A DNA stretch of 64,000 bases from Candidatus Magasanikiibacteriota bacterium (GTDB lineage Bacteria > Patescibacteriota > Patescibacteriia > Magasanikbacterales > GWA2-37-8), in contig JACPGS010000029.1 in the NCBI GenBank assembly GCA_016189025.1, positions 15,911-79,910 of the forward strand. The letters run 5' to 3'. Below are positions 4,948 through 64,000 of this stretch, piece after piece (the first letter of the stretch is position 1; each line of letters starts with the position of its first letter). Under the pieces are notes generated by a model. The model had not been told where the DNA came from and ran no database searches. It worked only from the letters and a program-made list of their open reading frames with translations. The position numbers were made by a program, and so were the translations under genes.

Positions 4948-5952
4948 ATGCTTTGGCTGATTAAAAATATCTGGCGTGGGGGGGCGAGTGCTTTGATTTT
5001 ATTGGCTATTTTTGCGCAAACCGTTTCGGTATTAGCGGCGGAGGAAAGGGAAACAGCCGAGACGCCGACGGCGTCGGCCGTGGTTGAGGAAACGTTTAAA
5101 AAAGGCCCGGCCGTGCGGGTGTTAATAGCAGAACAAGGGAAGCCGGTAACAATGCGCTCCGAAGTGCCGGTTGCCGTGTATACTGGCGTGATATTGCGTT
5201 TAGAACTTCCTCCGGAAACATTGATTACGATTCGCCGCGAGCGCCAGGCTTTAACGATTGAGAGCGAAGGAGTTAGTTTTGGCACCGAGGAGCCAGTGCG
5301 GATAATGGCTGAAGATCCGCTGGCGGTTTTTACCCTGCCTGGTTTTGCCCGCAAATTATCGGGCTGGAAGCAGGATTTTAATCAGTATCGGGGAATTTTG
5401 GAACTGCGTTTGGCGAAAGACAAGAATCTGCTGTTAATAAACGAGCTGCCGCTGGAGGCGTATGTAGCCGCCATAGTGGAAACTAATGAGCGCGATCCGG
5501 AAGAATATACCAAGGCGGTGCTCGTGGCGGCGCGCACTTATGCGGTGGTTTGGCGGGAGGAGGCGCGCCGGCGCGGTCGGGCATTTGATCTGCGCGGGAG
5601 CACTCACGACCAGCTTTATTTAGGATACCAGGCTGAATTAGCCCAGCCCCAGGTGCGGCAGTGGGCAGGGGAGACTGCCGGAGAAGTGGTAACCTATGAA
5701 GGATCGCCCGCCGCCACGCTTTACTTTGGTCACTCCACCGGCAAAACCAAATCCTGGCCCAAGCGCCTGGGCGAGCGGCCATGGCTTACGAGCGTCGCCG
5801 CGCCTTATGATAAAAAGTTTAAACGACTGTATGGCCACGGCTACGGCATGAGCATGAACGACGCCCGCGAGCGCGCGCGGCGAGACAACGCCACCTACCA
5901 GGAACTGCTTGCCTATTATTACACCGGCACCCAGGTGGAGGTACGATATTGA
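4948..5952 (+). CDS. SpoIID/LytB domain protein
   Basis: 334 aa; signal/TM N-terminus; conserved LEAYVAAIVETNE…AVLVAARTYAV block of the SpoIID amidase-enhancer domain. Confidence 0.7.
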   Translation: MLWLIKNIWRGGASALILLAIFAQTVSVLAAEERETAETPTASAVVEETFKKGPAVRVLIAEQGKPVTMRSEVPVAVYTGVILRLELPPETLITIRRERQALTIESEGVSFGTEEPVRIMAEDPLAVFTLPGFARKLSGWKQDFNQYRGILELRLAKDKNLLLINELPLEAYVAAIVETNERDPEEYTKAVLVAARTYAVVWREEARRRGRAFDLRGSTHDQLYLGYQAELAQPQVRQWAGETAGEVVTYEGSPAATLYFGHSTGKTKSWPKRLGERPWLTSVAAPYDKKFKRLYGHGYGMSMNDARERARRDNATYQELLAYYYTGTQVEVRY

Positions 5953-46921: not shown

Positions 46922-46950
46922 TTGACAAGAGCGCTATTTTGTGCTATTCT
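46922..46950 (+). promoter_or_regulatory. sigma70-like promoter (TTGACA-17-TATTCT) upstream of the DGR target gene
   Basis: Read from sequence; followed by a 16-codon uORF and a leader of about 160 nt. Confidence 0.45.
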
Positions 46951-47117
46951 ATACCGTTATGATGGTAATGAAAAGTCGCTCTTTAATTAGTGTCTTCAGC
47001 TTTCTTTAGCCTTATTTTATCAAAAGTAAGCCCAAAAGAAGGCTGGTAAACCAGCACTTCCTCTTTGCCACGTGGCAAGGAGTAAGCCCTTTACGAAAAG
47101 GGCAGAAAGGGATCGCT

Positions 47118-47588
47118 ATGAGCGATCTCCGCGCGTTGGCACACCTGGAAGAGCAGCTTGGCGAGGCCCGTTGGCAAGCTCTGATCAGCTCGGGTAACAC
47201 CGGGAAGATCAAGGAGTTCCTGGACACCCTCCCCGAGTGCGCCATCCCCACCGAGATGATCCTCGGCGGGGTCGCCTACGACATCCTCTCGTTCCTCCGG
47301 GGTGAGCAGTCGGTGAAGGGCGACCTCATGGTCGAGCGGGCCAAGGAGATGGGCGCTCACCAGGGTAAGAAGGAGCGCGAGCATCTCCTTGCTTACCAGG
47401 ATGAGATCCCCGTCGCGCTCCGCGGCAAGGTCGTCTTCGTCTTCACCGACGACCGGCGCCCGGGCGGCCCCGAGTACGTCTGCTGCGTCTGCTGGGACGA
47501 CGACCGCTGGGTCTCGCGCTGGGACTGGCTCGACGGCGGCTTCTTCGGCCGCTGCCGGGTTCTCCGCCGCAAGTCCGCGCAGCCCTAG
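47118..47588 (+). CDS. DGR target (variable) protein, C-terminal variable repeat
   Basis: 156 aa, about 65% GC; last 39 codons form a VR matching the downstream TR except at TR adenines. Confidence 0.7.
   Translation: MSDLRALAHLEEQLGEARWQALISSGNTGKIKEFLDTLPECAIPTEMILGGVAYDILSFLRGEQSVKGDLMVERAKEMGAHQGKKEREHLLAYQDEIPVALRGKVVFVFTDDRRPGGPEYVCCVCWDDDRWVSRWDWLDGGFFGRCRVLRRKSAQP
47454..47570 (+). repeat. DGR variable repeat (VR)
   Basis: 117 bp aligned to 47956..48072; 20 mismatches, all at TR adenine positions; identical GC-rich 3' block ccgggttctccgccgc. Confidence 0.8.
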
Positions 47589-47660
47589 GATCCTTGGAAT
47601 CTCAGCACTGTCACAAACGGTGTCGGGGTCACTCGGTCCCTTCGGCTCGCGCCGCAACAA

Positions 47661-47695
47661 GCCCGCCCTAAACACTAGGGCGGGCGTATCATTTT
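47661..47695 (+). terminator. hairpin plus T-run downstream of VR (terminator / DGR-associated stem-loop)
   Basis: gcccgccc-taaacacta-gggcgggc followed by gtatcattttt. Confidence 0.55.
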
Positions 47696-47955
47696 TGTGG
47701 TATACTGTACCCTGGATAGTAAACGAAACAGTCCACGGTGGCGGTCGCTCAAGGCGACCAAAGCTTTGGGCGGTTGAACTCTGGATACACCAACCGGCCA
47801 GAATAGTTTGGCGCATGTCGCCAGCTAGCGTGCCATTGGTATACCCTAAAAATGATGATACTTGGTGCAAAATGCTGGTGAGATCAAGTCTCCAAATAAA
47901 ATACAGCCCTGAGAGTATTCAAAGGGTAGTGATACAGATGGCAATTTGCATAAAG

Positions 47956-48072
47956 CGGCACCCGGACGACCCCGAGAACGTCTACTACGTCTACTGGAAC
48001 GACGACCGCTGGGTCACGAACTGGAACTGGCTCGACAACGACTTCAACGGCAACTACCGGGTTCTCCGCCGC
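47956..48072 (+). repeat. DGR template repeat (TR)
   Basis: Non-coding copy of VR, enriched in AAC codons in the VR frame (N-N-N-N corresponding to D/G/C in VR). Confidence 0.8.
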
Positions 48073-48113
48073 CAGTCTTCTCATTCTCCCGTCCATGTGG
48101 CGGGAGTTTCATT

Positions 48114-48536
48114 TTATGACGATTCGAGTTTCCGTATCCACCCCCCAAGCATAATACCGGCCTCAGTCAACTTTCCTGCTAGTTGTGAGTATTGGTTTGT
48201 CTCAAGCCCCTTGGCCTCCCACAAAATTGTTATGAAAAATTTAAGGTGATCAAGTTTTTGCGCAAGTTGGGTAAGTACCGCTAATTTCTGTTCACGTTTA
48301 GCATACTGCGCTGTCAATGTCACAGCAACCAAATCCGTAAATAAAATATCTATTTTTACGCCCAGCGTATAGCGCGTGAGGCGAGGAAGGTGTTGTAAAA
48401 AATTATGCCACAACAAATAACTCTCTTTGAGCAAAGACAAAATGGGAATTTCAGTACTGCCCTGCCCGTGAGCAAATTTGCCGTGGGGGGGGGGGGGCTT
48501 GATAGCCGCGTCGGTGGAAAAATTCAATTGGCTCAT
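48114..48536 (-). CDS. accessory variability determinant (Avd)-like four-helix-bundle protein; N-terminus uncertain
   Basis: LPRLTRYTLGVKIDI…LKFFITILWEAKGL…TEAGIMLGGWIRK parallels Bordetella phage Avd (IPRKHG…LRFWLRFLAGIQ…AEVGRILGSWI). Confidence 0.65.
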   Translation of the reverse strand: MSQLNFSTDAAIKPPPPHGKFAHGQGSTEIPILSLLKESYLLWHNFLQHLPRLTRYTLGVKIDILFTDLVAVTLTAQYAKREQKLAVLTQLAQKLDHLKFFITILWEAKGLETNQYSQLAGKLTEAGIMLGGWIRKLESS

Positions 48537-49517
48537 AGTTACGAAAATATTATTTGCTTAGAAAATTTATGCTTAGCGTGGGAAGAATTTATCATCGGCA
48601 AGAAAAAGAAACAAGATGTTATAGATTTTGGTCGTAGCTTGATGGACAATATTGTAGAGCTTCACGAGGCGTTAGTCAATCGCACTTATCGCCACGGCAG
48701 TTACGAAAGTTTTTACATCACCGACCCCAAACGGCGGCATATCCACAAGGCCAGCATGCGCGACCGCTTGCTTCATCACGCAGTGTATAGGATTTTGTAT
48801 CCATTTTTTGACCGTACGTTTATTGGTGACTCTTTTTCTTGCCGAGATAACAAAGGCGTACATAAAGCGCTTAATCGTTTTCGGCGTCTAGCCTGGCGTG
48901 CCAGCCGCAACCATACGCGCAATGTCTGGGTGTTTAAGTGCGACATCCGCAAGTTTTTTGCGCGCGTTGACCACCAGATTTTGTTAGCGATTTTGCATAC
49001 CTATATTCCGGATACGGATATTTTACGGCTGCTGCAAAATATTATTGAGAGCTACCATACCGAAAGCAATCCTGGCATTGGCCTACCGCTTGGTAACCTC
49101 ACCTCACAGCTTTTCGCCAATGTGTATCTAAACCGGCTTGATCACTGGGCCAAGCACGCACTTAAGTCGCATTATTATGTGCGTTATGCCGATGATTTTG
49201 TTTTGCTTTCTCGCGACCGGTTCCAGTTAGCAGAAGCCCTACCAAAAATTCAGGAATTTTTGCAGACTCAACTAAAACTATCCCTGCACCCGGACAAAAT
49301 ATTATTAAAGACAGTAGCCTCGGGCATGGATTTTTTAGGCTGGGTACATTTTTCCAGCCATTGTTTGCTTCGTACCAAAACTAAACAGAGAATGTTACAG
49401 AATATCAGAAACTCAATCAGCGAGGCGGGTCTGACATCATATCTCGGCCTAATCAGCCATGGCAACACCGCCGGATTGCGCGAACGGGTGATGGAGGAGT
49501 ATTGGCTGTGGAATTAA
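48405..49517 (+). CDS. DGR-type reverse transcriptase; true start probably near 48528
   Basis: YENIICLENLCLAWEEFIIGKKKK N-terminal RT0 block, TSQLFANVYLNRLDH, YVRYADDFVLL (YADD) catalytic motif. Confidence 0.85.
   Translation: MPQQITLFEQRQNGNFSTALPVSKFAVGGGGLDSRVGGKIQLAHSYENIICLENLCLAWEEFIIGKKKKQDVIDFGRSLMDNIVELHEALVNRTYRHGSYESFYITDPKRRHIHKASMRDRLLHHAVYRILYPFFDRTFIGDSFSCRDNKGVHKALNRFRRLAWRASRNHTRNVWVFKCDIRKFFARVDHQILLAILHTYIPDTDILRLLQNIIESYHTESNPGIGLPLGNLTSQLFANVYLNRLDHWAKHALKSHYYVRYADDFVLLSRDRFQLAEALPKIQEFLQTQLKLSLHPDKILLKTVASGMDFLGWVHFSSHCLLRTKTKQRMLQNIRNSISEAGLTSYLGLISHGNTAGLRERVMEEYWLWN
48485..48497. repeat. 13-nt poly-G homopolymer at the avd/RT 5' junction
   Basis: Seen directly (ccgt G13 ctt). 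Confidence 0.9.
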
Positions 49518-50692
49518 AGTAACGATTTTGGATCTACTCGGAGAATCTTATCATCCCCGCTCCGGGGTTTGCCGCGACCGTCGGTGTTGGAGGTGGAAAG
49601 GTAGAGGTAACCATCGGGGCCAAGCGCAATTGCGCGCAGCCTGCCGTAATGACCGCGCCAATGGGCGCGCAGTTTTTTTACTTTCCCCGCGGGAGTAATT
49701 TCGGCTTCGTACAACGACTCGCCGCGCAGACCGGTAAAGAAAATCCGATCTTGGTAAAAAACTGCTCCGGCCGGCGCCCAGGTTTCTTTCGGGCCGGAGT
49801 TAATCACAGGCGTTTTCATCTGGGCGCGTTTTTCTTTTCCCTGAATCGTCGGCCAGCCATAATTCGCGCCTGATTCAATCAGATTTAATTCATCTAAACC
49901 CGATAGTATTCCTGACCGGCCATGTTCGGTTTCCCACAGCCGCCCTTGGTTATCCCAGGCCAATCCCTGGGCATTGCGGTGGCCATAGGAATAGACTGCC
50001 GTGCCCAAGGGATTGTTGGCGGGGATGCCTCCGTTATCGGCCAGGCGCAAAGTTTTGCCGGCGAGAGATTTCAGATTTTGCGCTAATTCTGGTTTGCCCG
50101 CATCGCCGGTAGTAATATATAGGAAACCATCCGGCCCAAAGGCGAGGCGTCCGCCGTCGTGGTAGGGCGCGCCGGGGATGTTATCAATAATGATTAAGGG
50201 GTCAGTAAGGAAATTTATCCATTGATCATTAACTAAATCAGCCTCCAAACGATAGCGGGTAATGCGGTTTTTTAAGGTAAAATCCGTGCCGGAAGTTTGG
50301 TAAAGATAAAGCCAGTGGTTGTTGTTATAATTTGGGTGAACTGCTAGGCCGAGCAGCCCTCCTTCGCCGGCCGCCGCGCCTCCATTCGGTACAGTAATAG
50401 TAGTAATTTTGCCGTCCGTAGTAATTTTGCGCAGCGTCCCGGGTCGCTCCGTTACCAGCATATCCCCGCCCGGCAGCCAGGCAATTTCCCAGGGAATGCG
50501 GAGGTTTTGGGCAACTACGGATACGGTGGAGGTAGGCAAGGCGGCCGGGGCGGTAACTTGTTCCAGCGCGCTCCCCGTGGGGCGATAGAGCAGATAGCCC
50601 AAAGGGTGCAGGGAACCTAGCAAGATGCCGAAGGCAGCAGCACCGGCAAACCAAAACATGACTATTGCTTGGTGGCGTCCTGGTATATTCAT
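49514..50692 (-). CDS. PQQ-dependent sugar dehydrogenase (soluble aldose dehydrogenase-like beta-propeller)
   Basis: GLLGLAVHPNY and HGRNAQGLAWD blocks, N-terminal signal/TM. Confidence 0.7.
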   Translation of the reverse strand: MNIPGRHQAIVMFWFAGAAAFGILLGSLHPLGYLLYRPTGSALEQVTAPAALPTSTVSVVAQNLRIPWEIAWLPGGDMLVTERPGTLRKITTDGKITTITVPNGGAAAGEGGLLGLAVHPNYNNNHWLYLYQTSGTDFTLKNRITRYRLEADLVNDQWINFLTDPLIIIDNIPGAPYHDGGRLAFGPDGFLYITTGDAGKPELAQNLKSLAGKTLRLADNGGIPANNPLGTAVYSYGHRNAQGLAWDNQGRLWETEHGRSGILSGLDELNLIESGANYGWPTIQGKEKRAQMKTPVINSGPKETWAPAGAVFYQDRIFFTGLRGESLYEAEITPAGKVKKLRAHWRGHYGRLRAIALGPDGYLYLSTSNTDGRGKPRSGDDKILRVDPKSLL

Positions 50693-51238: not shown

Positions 51239-52192
51239 ATGTCCTACCTTTCGCCAATAATTAAAACCCGTCTGGAAGAAAAACTCGCCAAACTCAATAA
51301 ACTTCGCCCCCTACCAAAATCAGCCGTCCAAAAACTTCGAGAAAAATTTCAGATCGAGATGACCTACAACTCAAACGCCATTGAAGGCAACTCTTTAACT
51401 TTAAAAGAGACATTTTTGGTTATTAACGAAGGCATCACGGTAAAAGGCAAGCCTCTAAAAGATCATTTAGAGGCGAAAGACCACCATGCGGCGCTGGAAT
51501 ATTTATATGACTTGATAGACAAGGGCAAAAAATACACTGTTTCTGAAATGTTTATTAAAAACTTGCATCAAATTATTGTACAGGAAACCGACAAGGAATG
51601 GGCGGGCCGCTACCGAAACGCTAAGGTGATTATTGGCGGTGCAGATCATACTCCACCAGATGCGTTGCAAGTACCTAATCTGATGAGGGATTTAATTGTT
51701 TGGCTAAATTCACAAAAAAACAAACTGAATATTATTGAACTTTCCGCTTTGCTACATCATAAATTAGTCCACATTCATCCTTTTTTTGACGGCAATGGAC
51801 GAACCGCTCGCCTGACCATGAACCTGCTGCTGATGCAAGCCGGCTACCCGCTAGTTATCATCCTAAAAAATGATCGTAAAAAATACTACGACGTATTGGA
51901 CAAAGCGGATAAAGGCAACCATGAACCATTGGTTAAATTTATCGCTCAATCTATCGAGCGCTCGCTTGATATTTATTTAAAAACTTTAACTCCGGCCACT
52001 ACCAAACGGGAAAAATTTTTGACGCTCGCTGAAATATCCAAAACTACTCCTTTTTCTGCAAAATATTTAAACTTGCTGGCGAGGCAAGGTAAACTAGAGG
52101 CGCACAAAGAAGGCCGGGACTGGTTGACGACCAAAGAAGCGGTTGAGCGATACATAAGTAATAGAACAAGACAGCGAAAAATTTCAAAATAA
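51239..52192 (+). CDS. Fic/DOC family protein with C-terminal wHTH
   Basis: HIHPFFDGNGRTARL Fic motif; AT-rich. Confidence 0.85.
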   Translation: MSYLSPIIKTRLEEKLAKLNKLRPLPKSAVQKLREKFQIEMTYNSNAIEGNSLTLKETFLVINEGITVKGKPLKDHLEAKDHHAALEYLYDLIDKGKKYTVSEMFIKNLHQIIVQETDKEWAGRYRNAKVIIGGADHTPPDALQVPNLMRDLIVWLNSQKNKLNIIELSALLHHKLVHIHPFFDGNGRTARLTMNLLLMQAGYPLVIILKNDRKKYYDVLDKADKGNHEPLVKFIAQSIERSLDIYLKTLTPATTKREKFLTLAEISKTTPFSAKYLNLLARQGKLEAHKEGRDWLTTKEAVERYISNRTRQRKISK

Positions 52193-63673: not shown

Positions 63674-64000
63674 ATCGTACACCTCCTTTCTTAAATCGCG
63701 CGGCGCCGGAAGCGCCAGGCGCGCGGTGATGCAGTATCGCGTGAGTCGCTATATGTTTAGTGAGAATTCCCTAGGGAGTATTCCCACTCTCCCCGACCCC
63801 GTTTGATTCCGAGGAAAATTTTTTACCCGACAAGCATGGGGGTAAAATTTTCTTTCGACCTGATGAATATATTATAGAGTGTTTTGCAATAAAAATAAAT
63901 AGCGTCAAGCAAAGTTATGCACAGGGGGGGGGAAAATCGGAAAAAATTTATCAGTACGTTTTGTAAAATCAATTTAGAAATTAAAAAACCACCTCTCTTT

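What the first reader, a model, noticed from the sequence alone, without database searches (positions are those of the whole stretch)
46922..49517. Complete diversity-generating retroelement (promoter, target gene with VR, TR, divergent Avd-like gene, RT)
The 3' end of the 156-aa gene at 47118..47588 (VR 47454..47570) and a non-coding copy 500 bp downstream (TR 47956..48072) are 117 bp long. They differ at 20 positions, and at every one the TR carries an adenine while the VR carries G, T or C. No non-adenine position differs. This adenine-specific pattern is the hallmark of DGR mutagenic retrohoming. The TR is AAC-rich in the VR reading frame. Next to it are an Avd-like four-helix-bundle gene (48114..48536, minus strand) and a reverse transcriptase with the DGR-type YADD and NxYLN motifs (48405..49517). 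The target is small, GC-rich (about 65%) and has no signal peptide.
Basis: partly seen in the sequence, partly recalled or inferred. Interest (0 to 1): 0.85.

Follow-up and report, generated by a model that had tools for sequence, protein, structure and literature searches.

The report
CPR retroelement with a slippery G-tract
This is a real, complete diversity-generating retroelement of the type already known from tiny groundwater (CPR) bacteria, but its two enzyme genes are joined head-to-head by an unstable run of G's that looks like an on/off switch for the whole mutagenesis machine.

Summary
VR 47454-47570 and TR 47956-48072 align without gaps, with 20 mismatches, all at TR adenines (P≈5e-17). 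The RT is closest to the Bordetella DGR RT, the minus-strand gene is an Avd, and the 156-aa target models as a C-type-lectin fold.

The layout target–TR–(avd)–RT is the published "B3" architecture that makes up 90% of CPR DGRs. The element itself is therefore a new member of a known kind (Ca. Magasanikbacteria).

1. **G13 tract at 48485-48497.** It lies where the avd and RT 5' ends overlap.
   - 62 of 66 related loci carry a G6-G14, (GA)n or (GT)n repeat at this spot.
   - In 60 of 60 loci an ATG-led leader ORF runs open into it.
   - Four contigs otherwise identical to the window carry G11 or G12 instead of G13.
   - This suggests, but does not prove, phase-variable control of Avd (and here of RT).
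2. **The VR–TR spacer.** It holds a promoter-like −10 box and a ~240-nt structured RNA with strong covariation and no Rfam match. This RNA also pairs with the 3' flank of the TR.
3. **Target gene composition.** The gene is abnormally GC-rich family-wide (GC3 ≈0.9). This is unexplained.

The parts
46922..46950 (+). sigma-70-like promoter candidate for the target gene (TTGACA-17-TATTCT, TG-extended), followed by a ~167-nt 5' UTR
   Evidence: Consensus scan, 10/12 matches. A divergent 11/12 site at 46928-46900 faces rpiB. Consensus match only.
47118..47588 (+). target (variable protein) gene, 156 aa: two N-terminal helices plus a C-type-lectin-like domain; no signal peptide or TM segment
47454..47570 (+). 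variable repeat (VR), codons 113-151
   Evidence: 20/20 mismatches to the TR fall at TR adenines. Family-wide entropy is 2.60 bits at positions whose TR codon has A at position 1/2, against 0.74 at other VR positions.
47555..47575 (+). IMH-like end of the VR: A-free GC-rich CCGGGTTCTCCGCCGC, then A/C difference to the TR at 47571 (TR counterpart 48057-48077)
   Evidence: Direct comparison. Function inferred by analogy with the Bordetella phage IMH/IMH*.
47661..47695 (+). intrinsic terminator of the target gene (10-bp stem, T run)
   Evidence: Terminator scan. Position conserved in related loci.
47698..47706 (+). extended -10 box TGgTATACT, candidate promoter of the TR RNA
   Evidence: Equivalent TATAAT/TAAAAT boxes lie 8-10 nt before the conserved RNA in L002, L008, L017 and L100. 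Inferred, no transcript data.
47712..47955 (+). conserved structured 5' domain of the TR RNA (~240 nt)
   Evidence: nhmmer finds it directly upstream of the TR in about 55 related loci. RNAalifold on 32 sequences: 45 pairs, 37 with compensatory double changes. No Rfam 15 match at E<=1.
47850..47858 (+). AAAUGAUGA segment of the 5' domain that pairs with 48078-48086 (long-range duplex closing the TR into a loop)
   Evidence: In 27 loci 217/243 cells are paired, against a permutation mean of 197.6 (sd 2.4; 0 of 5000 reach the observed value). Compensatory AT->CG/TA and GC->AT changes occur. In the window 7 of 9 pairs form.
47956..48072 (+). template repeat (TR), 27 A, seven AAC codons in the VR frame
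48078..48086 (+). UUCUCAUUC, 3' flank of the TR, partner of 47850-47858; part of the clade-wide CGCAACTCTCTTCA-type motif
48086..48106 (+). stem-loop immediately 3' of the TR (CTCCCGTC-CATGT-GGCGGGAG) followed by TTTCATTTTA; candidate Avd-binding stem-loop and/or terminator of the TR RNA
   Evidence: Fold z-score -5.2, 0/200 shuffles fold as well. Terminator scan. Handa et al. predict Avd-binding stem-loops just 3' of the TR in 207/278 DGRs.
48114..48536 (-). avd (accessory variability determinant), 140-aa long form. The canonical four-helix body starts near residue 30. In-frame TTG codons at 48440 and 48434 could start a short form.
   Evidence: Pfam bAvd 41.7 bits (GA 40). NCBIfam DivGenRetAVD E 2e-16 but below its cut-off. 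GenBank MBI2444613.1 'four helix bundle protein', 140 aa. Alternative starts.
48498..48536 (-). 13-codon leader of avd (MSQLNFSTDAAIK) that runs from the ATG (antisense of the RT His codon) into the G/C tract
   Evidence: The equivalent leader frame is open from ATG to the tract in 60/60 loci, against 10/60 and 16/60 for the other two frames.
48485..48497 (.). G13/C13 homopolymer (simple sequence repeat) shared by the avd 5' coding region (PPPP) and the RT upstream ORF (GGGG); candidate slipped-strand switch
   Evidence: It is the longest homopolymer in the window. 62 of 66 related loci carry a repeat at this position: G6-G14 in 58 (counting L088), (GA)7-8 in 3 and (GT)12 in 1; L030, L044, L067 and L086 carry none. 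Same-strain contigs L113 (G12) and L115-L117 (G11) show 0 mismatches to the window elsewhere. L069 and L075 have G9 and G10 with identical flanks.
48528..49517 (+). DGR reverse transcriptase, 329 aa from TTG 48528 (GenBank call). A 370-aa form from ATG 48405 is in frame only through G13.
   Evidence: RVT_1 E 6e-23. Best PDB hit is bRT 8ub7, E 1e-36. 7998 homologues at E<=1e-40, mostly CPR. Start analysis.

Best explanation
The region is a chromosomal diversity-generating retroelement of the Candidate Phyla Radiation type (architecture B3: target, TR, avd on the opposite strand, RT) in a Candidatus Magasanikbacteria genome.

Proposed mechanism:
1. A separate TR RNA of about 400 nt is transcribed from the TGgTATACT box (inferred).
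2. This RNA has three parts: a conserved structured 5' domain, the 117-nt TR, and a 3' flank. The 3' flank pairs back to the 5' domain and ends in a stem-loop (structure shown by covariation; role inferred).
3. The RT-Avd complex copies the TR into cDNA and misincorporates opposite adenines (inferred from the family; the footprint is shown).
4. The cDNA replaces the VR, guided by the A-free GC-rich 3' end (inferred).
5. The result is re-randomisation of up to 20 codons on the surface of a small cytoplasmic C-type-lectin-fold protein whose ligand is unknown.

On top of this, the 5' ends of avd and RT overlap on opposite strands across a G13/C13 tract. A conserved 13-codon leader ORF enters the tract on the avd strand, and in this lineage an ATG-led ORF enters it on the RT strand. 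Both are in frame at G13. I propose that slipped-strand changes in tract length switch production of full-length Avd (and here of the long RT form) on and off, so the mutagenic element is itself phase-variable. My confidence is about 0.95 for the DGR identity and about 0.5 for the switch.
For: DGR identity:
- 20/20 mismatches fall at TR adenines, P 5e-17.
- The RT is closest to bRT, with the TSQLFANVY and YADD motifs.
- Avd passes the Pfam bAvd gathering score.
- VR variation across 91 homologues tracks TR adenines.
- L002, L003 and L017 carry the same target-TR layout with A-only mismatches; L003 and L017 also carry the minus-strand avd, and L017 the RT.
- B3 is the standard CPR layout, and a Patescibacteria-restricted RT clade is published.

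TR RNA:
- -10 boxes are conserved.
- 37/45 pairs show compensatory changes.
- The long-range duplex shows covariation.
- The 3' stem-loop has z -5.2.

Switch:
- A repeat is present at the same place in 62/66 loci, and its type is interchangeable: G-run, (GA)n or (GT)n.
- 63 G runs of 8 or more occur in 545 kb of related loci, all on the RT strand, one per locus except two in L036 and L049.
- The leader frame is open in 60/60 loci, against 17-27% for the control frames.
- The Avd body is in frame with the leader ATG in about one third of loci.
- Seven loci have no canonical avd start except through the tract.
- L088 has no RT start unless the tract gains one G.
- G13, G12 and G11 occur in otherwise identical same-strain contigs, and G9/G10 in L069/L075.
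- The diverged relatives L109 (G10) and L114 (G7) have the same flank lengths as the window, so their tracts keep the frame.
- Several contigs break exactly at the tract.
Against: - Activity is not shown. The consensus VR is identical in three other assemblies that cover part of it (L115-L117), and no reads were available.
- The GC-rich hairpin expected just 3' of the VR is not significant in the window (z +1.55).
- Avd scores below the NCBIfam equivalog cut-off (60 against 80 bits).
- For the switch, homopolymer length in Illumina assemblies is error-prone, so G11/G12/G13 could be partly technical.
- An in-frame fraction of one third is also what a non-coding tract would give.
- Most loci have TTG or ATG codons after the tract that could start a short Avd, and 45/75 loci have an ATG for the RT downstream of the tract.
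- All three repeat types can also form non-B DNA, so a structural role at the DNA level is possible.
- I could not read Paul et al. 2017 (Nat Microbiol), which may already describe these features.
Confidence: 0.9

Rival explanations
1. The element is a DGR by descent but is currently silent or decaying. The VR was written once and is now just a diverged copy. The G tract is a mutational hotspot that has knocked avd and RT out of frame in most cells.
For: The VR consensus is identical in L115-L117, which carry G11, out of frame. Related loci show decay: L012 keeps only an RT remnant and L003 a truncated avd, and L100 has TGA at the conserved Trp of avd. Five family members with full 5-kb flanks have no TR or RT nearby.
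Against: In the window the RT catalytic motifs, avd and the VR frame are all intact, and not one non-A mismatch has accumulated between VR and TR over 117 nt. A tract that merely decays would not be kept as a pure repeat in 62/66 loci whose RTs are only 50-60% identical, nor would the leader frame stay open in 60/60.
Confidence: 0.15
2. The G tract is a conserved functional element that does not act through length variation. It could be a non-B DNA or protein-binding element in the shared avd/RT control region, or an RNA element in the two 5' UTRs. The observed length differences would then be sequencing or assembly noise or neutral.
For: Poly-G, (GA)n and (GT)n are all non-B-DNA-forming (established knowledge). 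The in-frame fraction is about one third, as expected by chance. Most loci have possible downstream starts. Promoter-like sites for each gene lie inside the other gene, so the tract would sit in both 5' UTRs.
Against: The leader frame is open in 60/60 loci against 10/60 and 16/60 for the other frames, which argues for translation into the tract. Some loci have no start codon other than through the tract. Three independent assemblies agree on G11 while the MAG has G13. Lineages with the same flank lengths have G13, G10 and G7, which differ by whole codons. Pairing of poly-G with the pyrimidine motif 3' of the TR was considered, but that motif pairs with the 5' domain instead, and (GT)n loci cannot form such a pairing.
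Confidence: 0.3
3. This is not a DGR. The RT belongs to a group II intron or retron, as GenBank's name 'group II intron reverse transcriptase domain-containing protein' suggests, and the repeat is an ordinary duplication.
For: The NCBIfam group II RT/maturase model is the best NCBIfam hit (149 bits), and GenBank uses that name.
Against: That hit is far below its cut-off of 300 bits. No group II intron or retron RNA is found by Rfam. bRT is a much better match than any group II RT. Avd is adjacent. The adenine-only mismatch pattern has P 5e-17.
Confidence: 0.01

Closest known systems
CPR/Patescibacteria DGRs: architecture B3 of Wu et al. 2018 (PMC5758913) and DGR clade 2 of Roux et al. 2021 (PMC8144416)
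   Same: The order target-TR-(avd)-RT with avd on the reverse strand. RT relatives are overwhelmingly from CPR genomes. It is chromosomal and cellular rather than viral (no viral-contig relatives). The target has no known domain.
   Different: Nothing in the layout differs. The G/C repeat at the avd-RT junction, the ~240-nt structured RNA 5' of the TR and the GC-rich target are not mentioned in the papers I could read. Paul et al. 2017 could not be read.
Bordetella phage BPP-1 DGR (mtd-avd-TR-brt) and its DGR RNA (Handa et al. 2018, PMC6182149; bioRxiv 10.1101/2023.10.23.563531)
   Same: Adenine-specific TR-to-VR transfer. The RT is homologous to bRT (E 1e-36) with the same TSQLFANVY palm motif. 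An Avd is present. The target has a C-type-lectin fold with a C-terminal VR. A stem-loop lies just 3' of the TR. A duplex between sequences upstream and downstream of the TR loops the TR out.
   Different: avd is inverted and overlaps the RT 5' end. The large structured RNA lies 5' of the TR rather than 3' (Sp), and the upstream strand of the duplex is about 100 nt, not about 10 nt, before the TR. The priming site is unknown. The target is a 156-aa cytoplasmic protein, not a phage tail fibre. The VR-proximal hairpin is weak.
Simple-sequence contingency loci (poly-G/C phase variation in Neisseria, Haemophilus, Campylobacter; poly-C tracts in Bordetella fim promoters) - from general knowledge; see also PMC4965091 and PMC12633550 listed
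   Same: A pure homopolymer of 7-14 G/C near the 5' end of a reading frame. Length differs between otherwise identical sequences. About one third of genomes are in frame. Repeat type is interchangeable between lineages.
   Different: The tract controls a mutagenic retroelement rather than a surface antigen or restriction system. It is read on both strands by two divergent genes. Switching has not been measured.

Membership tests
Diversity-generating retroelement | TR/VR repeat pair whose differences are confined to TR adenines | tested here: met
   20/20 mismatches at TR A, 0 at the 90 non-A positions, P 5e-17
Diversity-generating retroelement | RT of the DGR clade (motif 4 LGxxxSQ rather than the group II QGxxxSP; YxDD) | tested here: met
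   Best PDB hit is bRT 8ub7, E 1e-36, against about 1e-16 for group II and retron-type RTs. LGNLTSQLFANVY and YADD are present. No DGR-specific HMM was available in NCBIfam or Pfam.
Diversity-generating retroelement | VR at the 3' end of an ORF, in frame, with variable adenines at codon positions 1 and 2 (AAC codons) | tested here: met
   All 20 changes fall at position 1 or 2; seven AAC codons in the TR
Diversity-generating retroelement | Accessory protein Avd | tested here: met
   Pfam bAvd 41.7 bits (GA 40). NCBIfam DivGenRetAVD E 2e-16 but 60 bits, below the cut-off of 80.
Diversity-generating retroelement | IMH at the VR 3' end with a non-identical IMH* at the TR end | tested here: met
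   An A-free 16-nt GC-rich identical segment, then an A/C difference at 47571/48073 and loss of homology after 47575. Function not testable.
Diversity-generating retroelement | GC-rich inverted repeat just downstream of the VR | tested here: inconclusive
   Window 47566-47612 folds no better than shuffles (z +1.55). L017 has a clear hairpin (z -2.1).
Diversity-generating retroelement | Ongoing mutagenic homing (VR heterogeneity within a population) | not testable with these tools
   No reads were available. The consensus VR is identical in L115-L117 where they overlap it.
CPR DGR architecture B3 (Wu et al. 2018) | Core order TR-(avd)-RT with avd on the reverse strand | tested here: met
   Window coordinates. 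The same holds in every related locus that has enough upstream sequence. Definition.
C-type-lectin-fold DGR variable proteins | CLec fold with the VR forming its C-terminal part | tested here: met
Simple-sequence-repeat contingency locus | Repeat tract inside a reading frame or promoter | tested here: met
   G13 lies in codons 13-18 of the annotated avd and in the RT upstream ORF. The leader frame is open in 60/60 loci.
Simple-sequence-repeat contingency locus | Tract length polymorphic among otherwise identical genomes | tested here: met
   Window G13, L113 G12, L115/L116/L117 G11, with 0 mismatches over 1.3-1.95 kb. L069 G9 against L075 G10. Caveat: these are short-read assemblies.
Simple-sequence-repeat contingency locus | Length change reversibly switches expression at high frequency | not testable with these tools
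   Only the predicted frame effect is seen: gene calls of 140, 106 and 99 aa for G13, G12 and G11.
Group II intron | Intron RNA domains flanking the RT; RT scoring above the group II model cut-off | tested here: not met
   No Rfam hit at E<=1. TIGR04416 scores 149 bits against a cut-off of 300.

The most novel reading that the evidence does not exclude
In the whole CPR clade of DGRs, the mutagenic machinery is gated by a contingency repeat. A slippery G/C (or GA/GT) tract, read on both strands where avd and RT overlap head-to-head, would stochastically switch Avd (and in some lineages RT) on and off. Targeted hypermutation of the variable protein would then occur only in a subpopulation. Together with a previously undescribed structured RNA domain 5' of the TR, this would be a second-order, heritable but reversible control of a hypermutation system.
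Probability: 0.45. Interest if true: 0.75.

Novelty: new member of a known kind. Interest (0 to 1): 0.55.

Why it matters
The DGR itself adds one more example to a large known clade and corrects a GenBank record that calls the RT a group II intron protein and leaves the target as 'hypothetical'. The interest lies in how DGR activity is controlled, which is largely unknown outside the Bordetella phage. A conserved hypermutable repeat in the avd/RT overlap would give a simple, testable on/off mechanism for an element whose uncontrolled activity is risky in a tiny genome. The ~240-nt covarying RNA and its pairing with the TR 3' flank give a concrete RNA construct (window 47712-48116) for reconstituting a CPR DGR in vitro. 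They also suggest that the RNA scaffold found 3' of the TR in Bordetella is placed 5' of it here. The family-wide GC3 of about 0.9 in the target gene is an unexplained compositional signal that could be used to find such targets.

Tried and rejected
- **Second VR.** I scanned the window for another VR using TR non-A positions and found none.
- **Phage relatives of the target.** 30 pattern matches in viral contigs, none confirmed.
- **Alignment-based locus search.** Two searches failed for lack of conserved stretches before a 14-sequence alignment worked.
- **Poly-G pairing with the pyrimidine motif 3' of the TR.** Rejected. The motif pairs with the 5' domain with covariation, and (GT)n loci cannot form the poly-G pairing.
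- **RT always translated from the upstream ATG through the tract.** Rejected as a general rule. 45/75 loci have an ATG after the tract, and among those lacking one only about a third have an in-frame upstream ATG.
- **Same-protein look-ups to find tract variants.**
  - Look-ups with the long RT proteins of relatives (P0119, P0098) are uninformative, because an identical long protein forces an identical tract.
  - The window's own 370-aa form is not on record.
  - The 291-aa form only re-found L113.
- **Hairpin 3' of the VR.** Not significant in the window.
- **Whole TR RNA single-sequence fold.** z only -1.2. The structure rests on covariation, not on energy.
- **Resources not available.** The afdb50 fold library was unavailable. 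Paul et al. 2017 is not held, and the Wu et al. supplements are not held.
Full report
**1. The observation**

The two 117-nt segments 47454-47570 and 47956-48072 align without gaps.
- They differ at 20 positions. At every one the downstream copy has A and the upstream copy has G (14), T (4) or C (2).
- None of the 90 non-A positions differs, and 20 of the 27 adenines are changed.
- All changes lie at codon position 1 or 2 of the 156-aa ORF 47118-47588.
- The probability that 20 random mismatches all fall on the 27 A positions is 5e-17.
- Homology continues for five more bases, with one non-A difference at 47571/48073. This sits just after an A-free GC-rich 16-mer, as expected for an IMH/IMH* pair.
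- No further VR-like copy exists in the window.

**2. The genes**

*Reverse transcriptase.* The RT has Pfam RVT_1. Its best solved relative is the Bordetella phage DGR RT (8ub7, E 1e-36). Group II intron and retron-type RTs score about 1e-16. The palm motif LGNLTSQLFANVY and the YADD box are conserved. The group II model of NCBIfam is hit far below its cut-off (149 of 300 bits), and Rfam finds no intron or retron RNA.

*Avd.* The minus-strand gene 48114-48536 passes the Pfam bAvd gathering score. It matches the NCBIfam Avd model at E 2e-16, but below that model's cut-off.

*Source.* The sequence is from a Candidatus Magasanikbacteria MAG. GenBank names the three proteins 'hypothetical protein', 'four helix bundle protein' and 'group II intron reverse transcriptase domain-containing protein'.

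**3. How ordinary is it?**

- Wu et al. 2018 define architecture B3 as TR-(avd)-RT with avd on the reverse strand. They report that it accounts for 90% of their CPR set.
- Roux et al. 2021 describe a DGR clade restricted to Patescibacteria.
- All RT relatives I fetched (80 metagenome loci, RT 51-61% identical) that have enough upstream sequence carry a divergent avd directly upstream.
- The RT has 7998 homologues at E<=1e-40.

The element is a new member of a known kind.

**4. The target family**

- 93 homologues of about 155 aa occur in Magasanikbacteria, Falkowbacteria and Parcubacteria.
- Across 91 aligned members, VR positions whose codon in the window's TR has A at position 1/2 have mean entropy 2.60 bits. 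Other VR positions have 0.74 bits and residues 1-112 have 1.32 bits. The whole family therefore bears the DGR footprint on a shared scaffold.
- L002, L003 and L017 have the same target-TR layout with A-only mismatches. L003 and L017 also show avd, and L017 the RT.
- Several contigs end at the VR. Five loci with full 5-kb flanks have no TR or RT nearby.

**5. The G tract**

The window holds a G13 run at 48485-48497, its longest homopolymer. On the minus strand it encodes PPPP in codons 14-17 of the annotated avd. On the plus strand it lies about 30 nt before the annotated RT start (TTG 48528) and inside the long ORF from ATG 48405.

*Conservation of the repeat*
- Among 66 related loci with the junction, 58 have G6-G14 at the same place (mostly G9-G11), three have (GA)7-8 and one has (GT)12. 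Four have none.
- In 545 kb of these loci there are 63 G/C runs of 8 or more. All are G on the RT strand, one per locus except two in L036 and L049.
- Several contigs begin exactly at the run.

*The leader ORF on the avd strand*
- The ATG formed by the antisense of the conserved RT His codon opens a short ORF. This ORF is free of stops all the way into the repeat in 60 of 60 loci. The other two frames over the same interval are open in 10 and 16 of 60.
- The Avd body always reads the tract as prolines.
- The body is in frame with that ATG in only 18-20 of 61 loci.
- In every locus an ATG-led frame enters the tract in one of the three phases.
- Seven loci have no canonical avd start codon except via another tract length.
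- L088 has no RT start unless one G is added.

*Length polymorphism*
- Four Logan contigs from four sequencing runs match the window over 1.27-1.95 kb with zero mismatches and a single gap, which is the tract. They carry G12 (L113) or G11 (L115, L116, L117) against G13 in the window.
- Gene callers then give Avd as 140, 106 or 99 aa for G13, G12 and G11.
- L069 and L075 are identical over 1.2 kb of flanks but have G9 and G10.
- The diverged relatives L109 and L114 have the same flank lengths as the window and carry G10 and G7, so the frame is kept.

*Reading*

I read this as a slipped-strand contingency repeat that gates Avd, and in this lineage the long RT form. I give this about 0.5 probability, for four reasons:
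- Homopolymer length in short-read assemblies is error-prone.
- A one-third in-frame rate is also the chance expectation.
- Downstream start codons exist in most loci.
- A non-B-DNA or UTR role cannot be excluded.

Promoter-like sites for each gene lie inside the other gene (48679-48651 on the minus strand, 48319-48347 on the plus strand). That would place the tract and both upstream ATGs in the mRNAs, but these are consensus matches only. I found no paper in the searchable library linking DGRs with homopolymers, phase variation or contingency loci. Paul et al. 2017 could not be read.

**6. The 'spacer' is an RNA gene**

- After the target's terminator (47661-47695) comes TGgTATACT (47698-47706). 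TATAAT or TAAAAT boxes stand at the same place in relatives.
- A roughly 240-nt segment follows that is conserved at the nucleotide level. A 5-sequence nhmmer profile finds it directly upstream of the TR in about 55 loci.
- RNAalifold on 32 sequences predicts 45 pairs, 37 of them with compensatory double changes. Rfam 15 has no match.
- All loci end the TR with a CGCAACTCTCTTCA-like motif abutting the avd stop codon.
- Nine bases of that motif pair with a conserved single-stranded AAAUGAAGA in the 5' domain.
  - Over 27 loci, 217 of 243 cells are paired, against a permutation mean of 197.6 (sd 2.4; 0 of 5000 reach the observed value).
  - Compensatory changes occur at three positions.
  - In the window, 47850-47858 pairs with 48078-48086 at 7 of 9 positions.
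- A stem-loop follows (48086-48106, z -5.2).

This resembles the Bordetella DGR RNA, where a duplex between sequences upstream and downstream of the TR loops the TR out, and an Avd-binding stem-loop follows the TR. Here, however, the large structured part is 5' of the TR.

**7. Unexplained**

- The target gene is GC-rich over its whole length in every family member: 0.53-0.69 in the non-VR part against 0.39-0.50 for the flanks.
- Pooled third codon positions are A 6%, T 11%, C 49% and G 34%.
- By contrast, avd, the RT and the RNA leader are AT-rich.
- The bias is not strand-asymmetric, so it is not a simple footprint of adenine mutagenesis.

**8. Verdict**

- The element is an ordinary CPR DGR in layout.
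- The conserved unstable repeat at the avd/RT overlap and the structured TR-RNA domain are the parts worth following up.

Noticed in passing
window 48485-48497 (and the same position in L017, L019-L098, L100, L109, L113-L117): A conserved G6-G14 run, or (GA)n/(GT)n, lies at the head-to-head overlap of avd and RT. Its length differs (G13/G12/G11) between the window and four otherwise identical contigs.
   Followed up: yes
window 47698-48106: The VR-TR 'spacer' holds a -10 box, a ~240-nt covarying RNA domain with no Rfam match, a long-range duplex with the TR 3' flank, and a stem-loop after the TR. This is probably a discrete TR RNA.
   Followed up: yes
window 47118-47453 and the homologous genes in L002-L017: The non-VR part of the target gene is 15-25 points more GC-rich than its genome in every family member (GC3 about 0.9 in the window; A at only 6% of third positions). 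The rest of the cassette is AT-rich. No explanation.
   Followed up: partly
window 63924-63932: A second long G run (G9) lies in an AT-rich intergenic stretch at the very end of the window. Its context is cut off, so I cannot tell whether it is another repeat-controlled locus.
   Followed up: no
L007, L009, L010, L014, L016 (target homologue at about 5001-5460): These family members have 5 kb on both sides but no TR, avd or RT nearby, although their C-termini vary at the same positions. The DGR is either elsewhere in the genome or lost. Many other contigs (L005, L006, L008, L011, L018) end at or just after the VR.
   Followed up: partly
L100 2400-2625 (Magasanikbacteria RIFOXYD, RT P0119): avd has TGA in place of the conserved Trp codon of the YLLWH motif in all ten contigs carrying this RT, and the TR-like copy looks A-poor. 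This may be a decaying element.
   Followed up: no
L017 5001-5997; L036 1257-2093 and 3637-4969; L012 5277-5648: L017 has two tandem target paralogues before one TR. L036 has a truncated second avd-RT copy. L012 keeps only a TR-like copy and the last ~65 codons of an RT after its target gene.
   Followed up: no
window 48405-48430 and 48528-48536: There is a mirror-image arrangement. The ATG of the long RT ORF is the antisense of the His codon of Avd's LWH motif, and the ATG of the long avd ORF is the antisense of the His codon of the RT's KIQLxH motif. At G13 both long ORFs are in frame.
   Followed up: partly
window 51239-52192: A Fic/DOC-family protein with a C-terminal HTH_17 domain lies about 1.7 kb downstream of the DGR, after a glucose/sorbosone dehydrogenase gene (49514-50692, minus strand). 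No evident link to the DGR.
   Followed up: no
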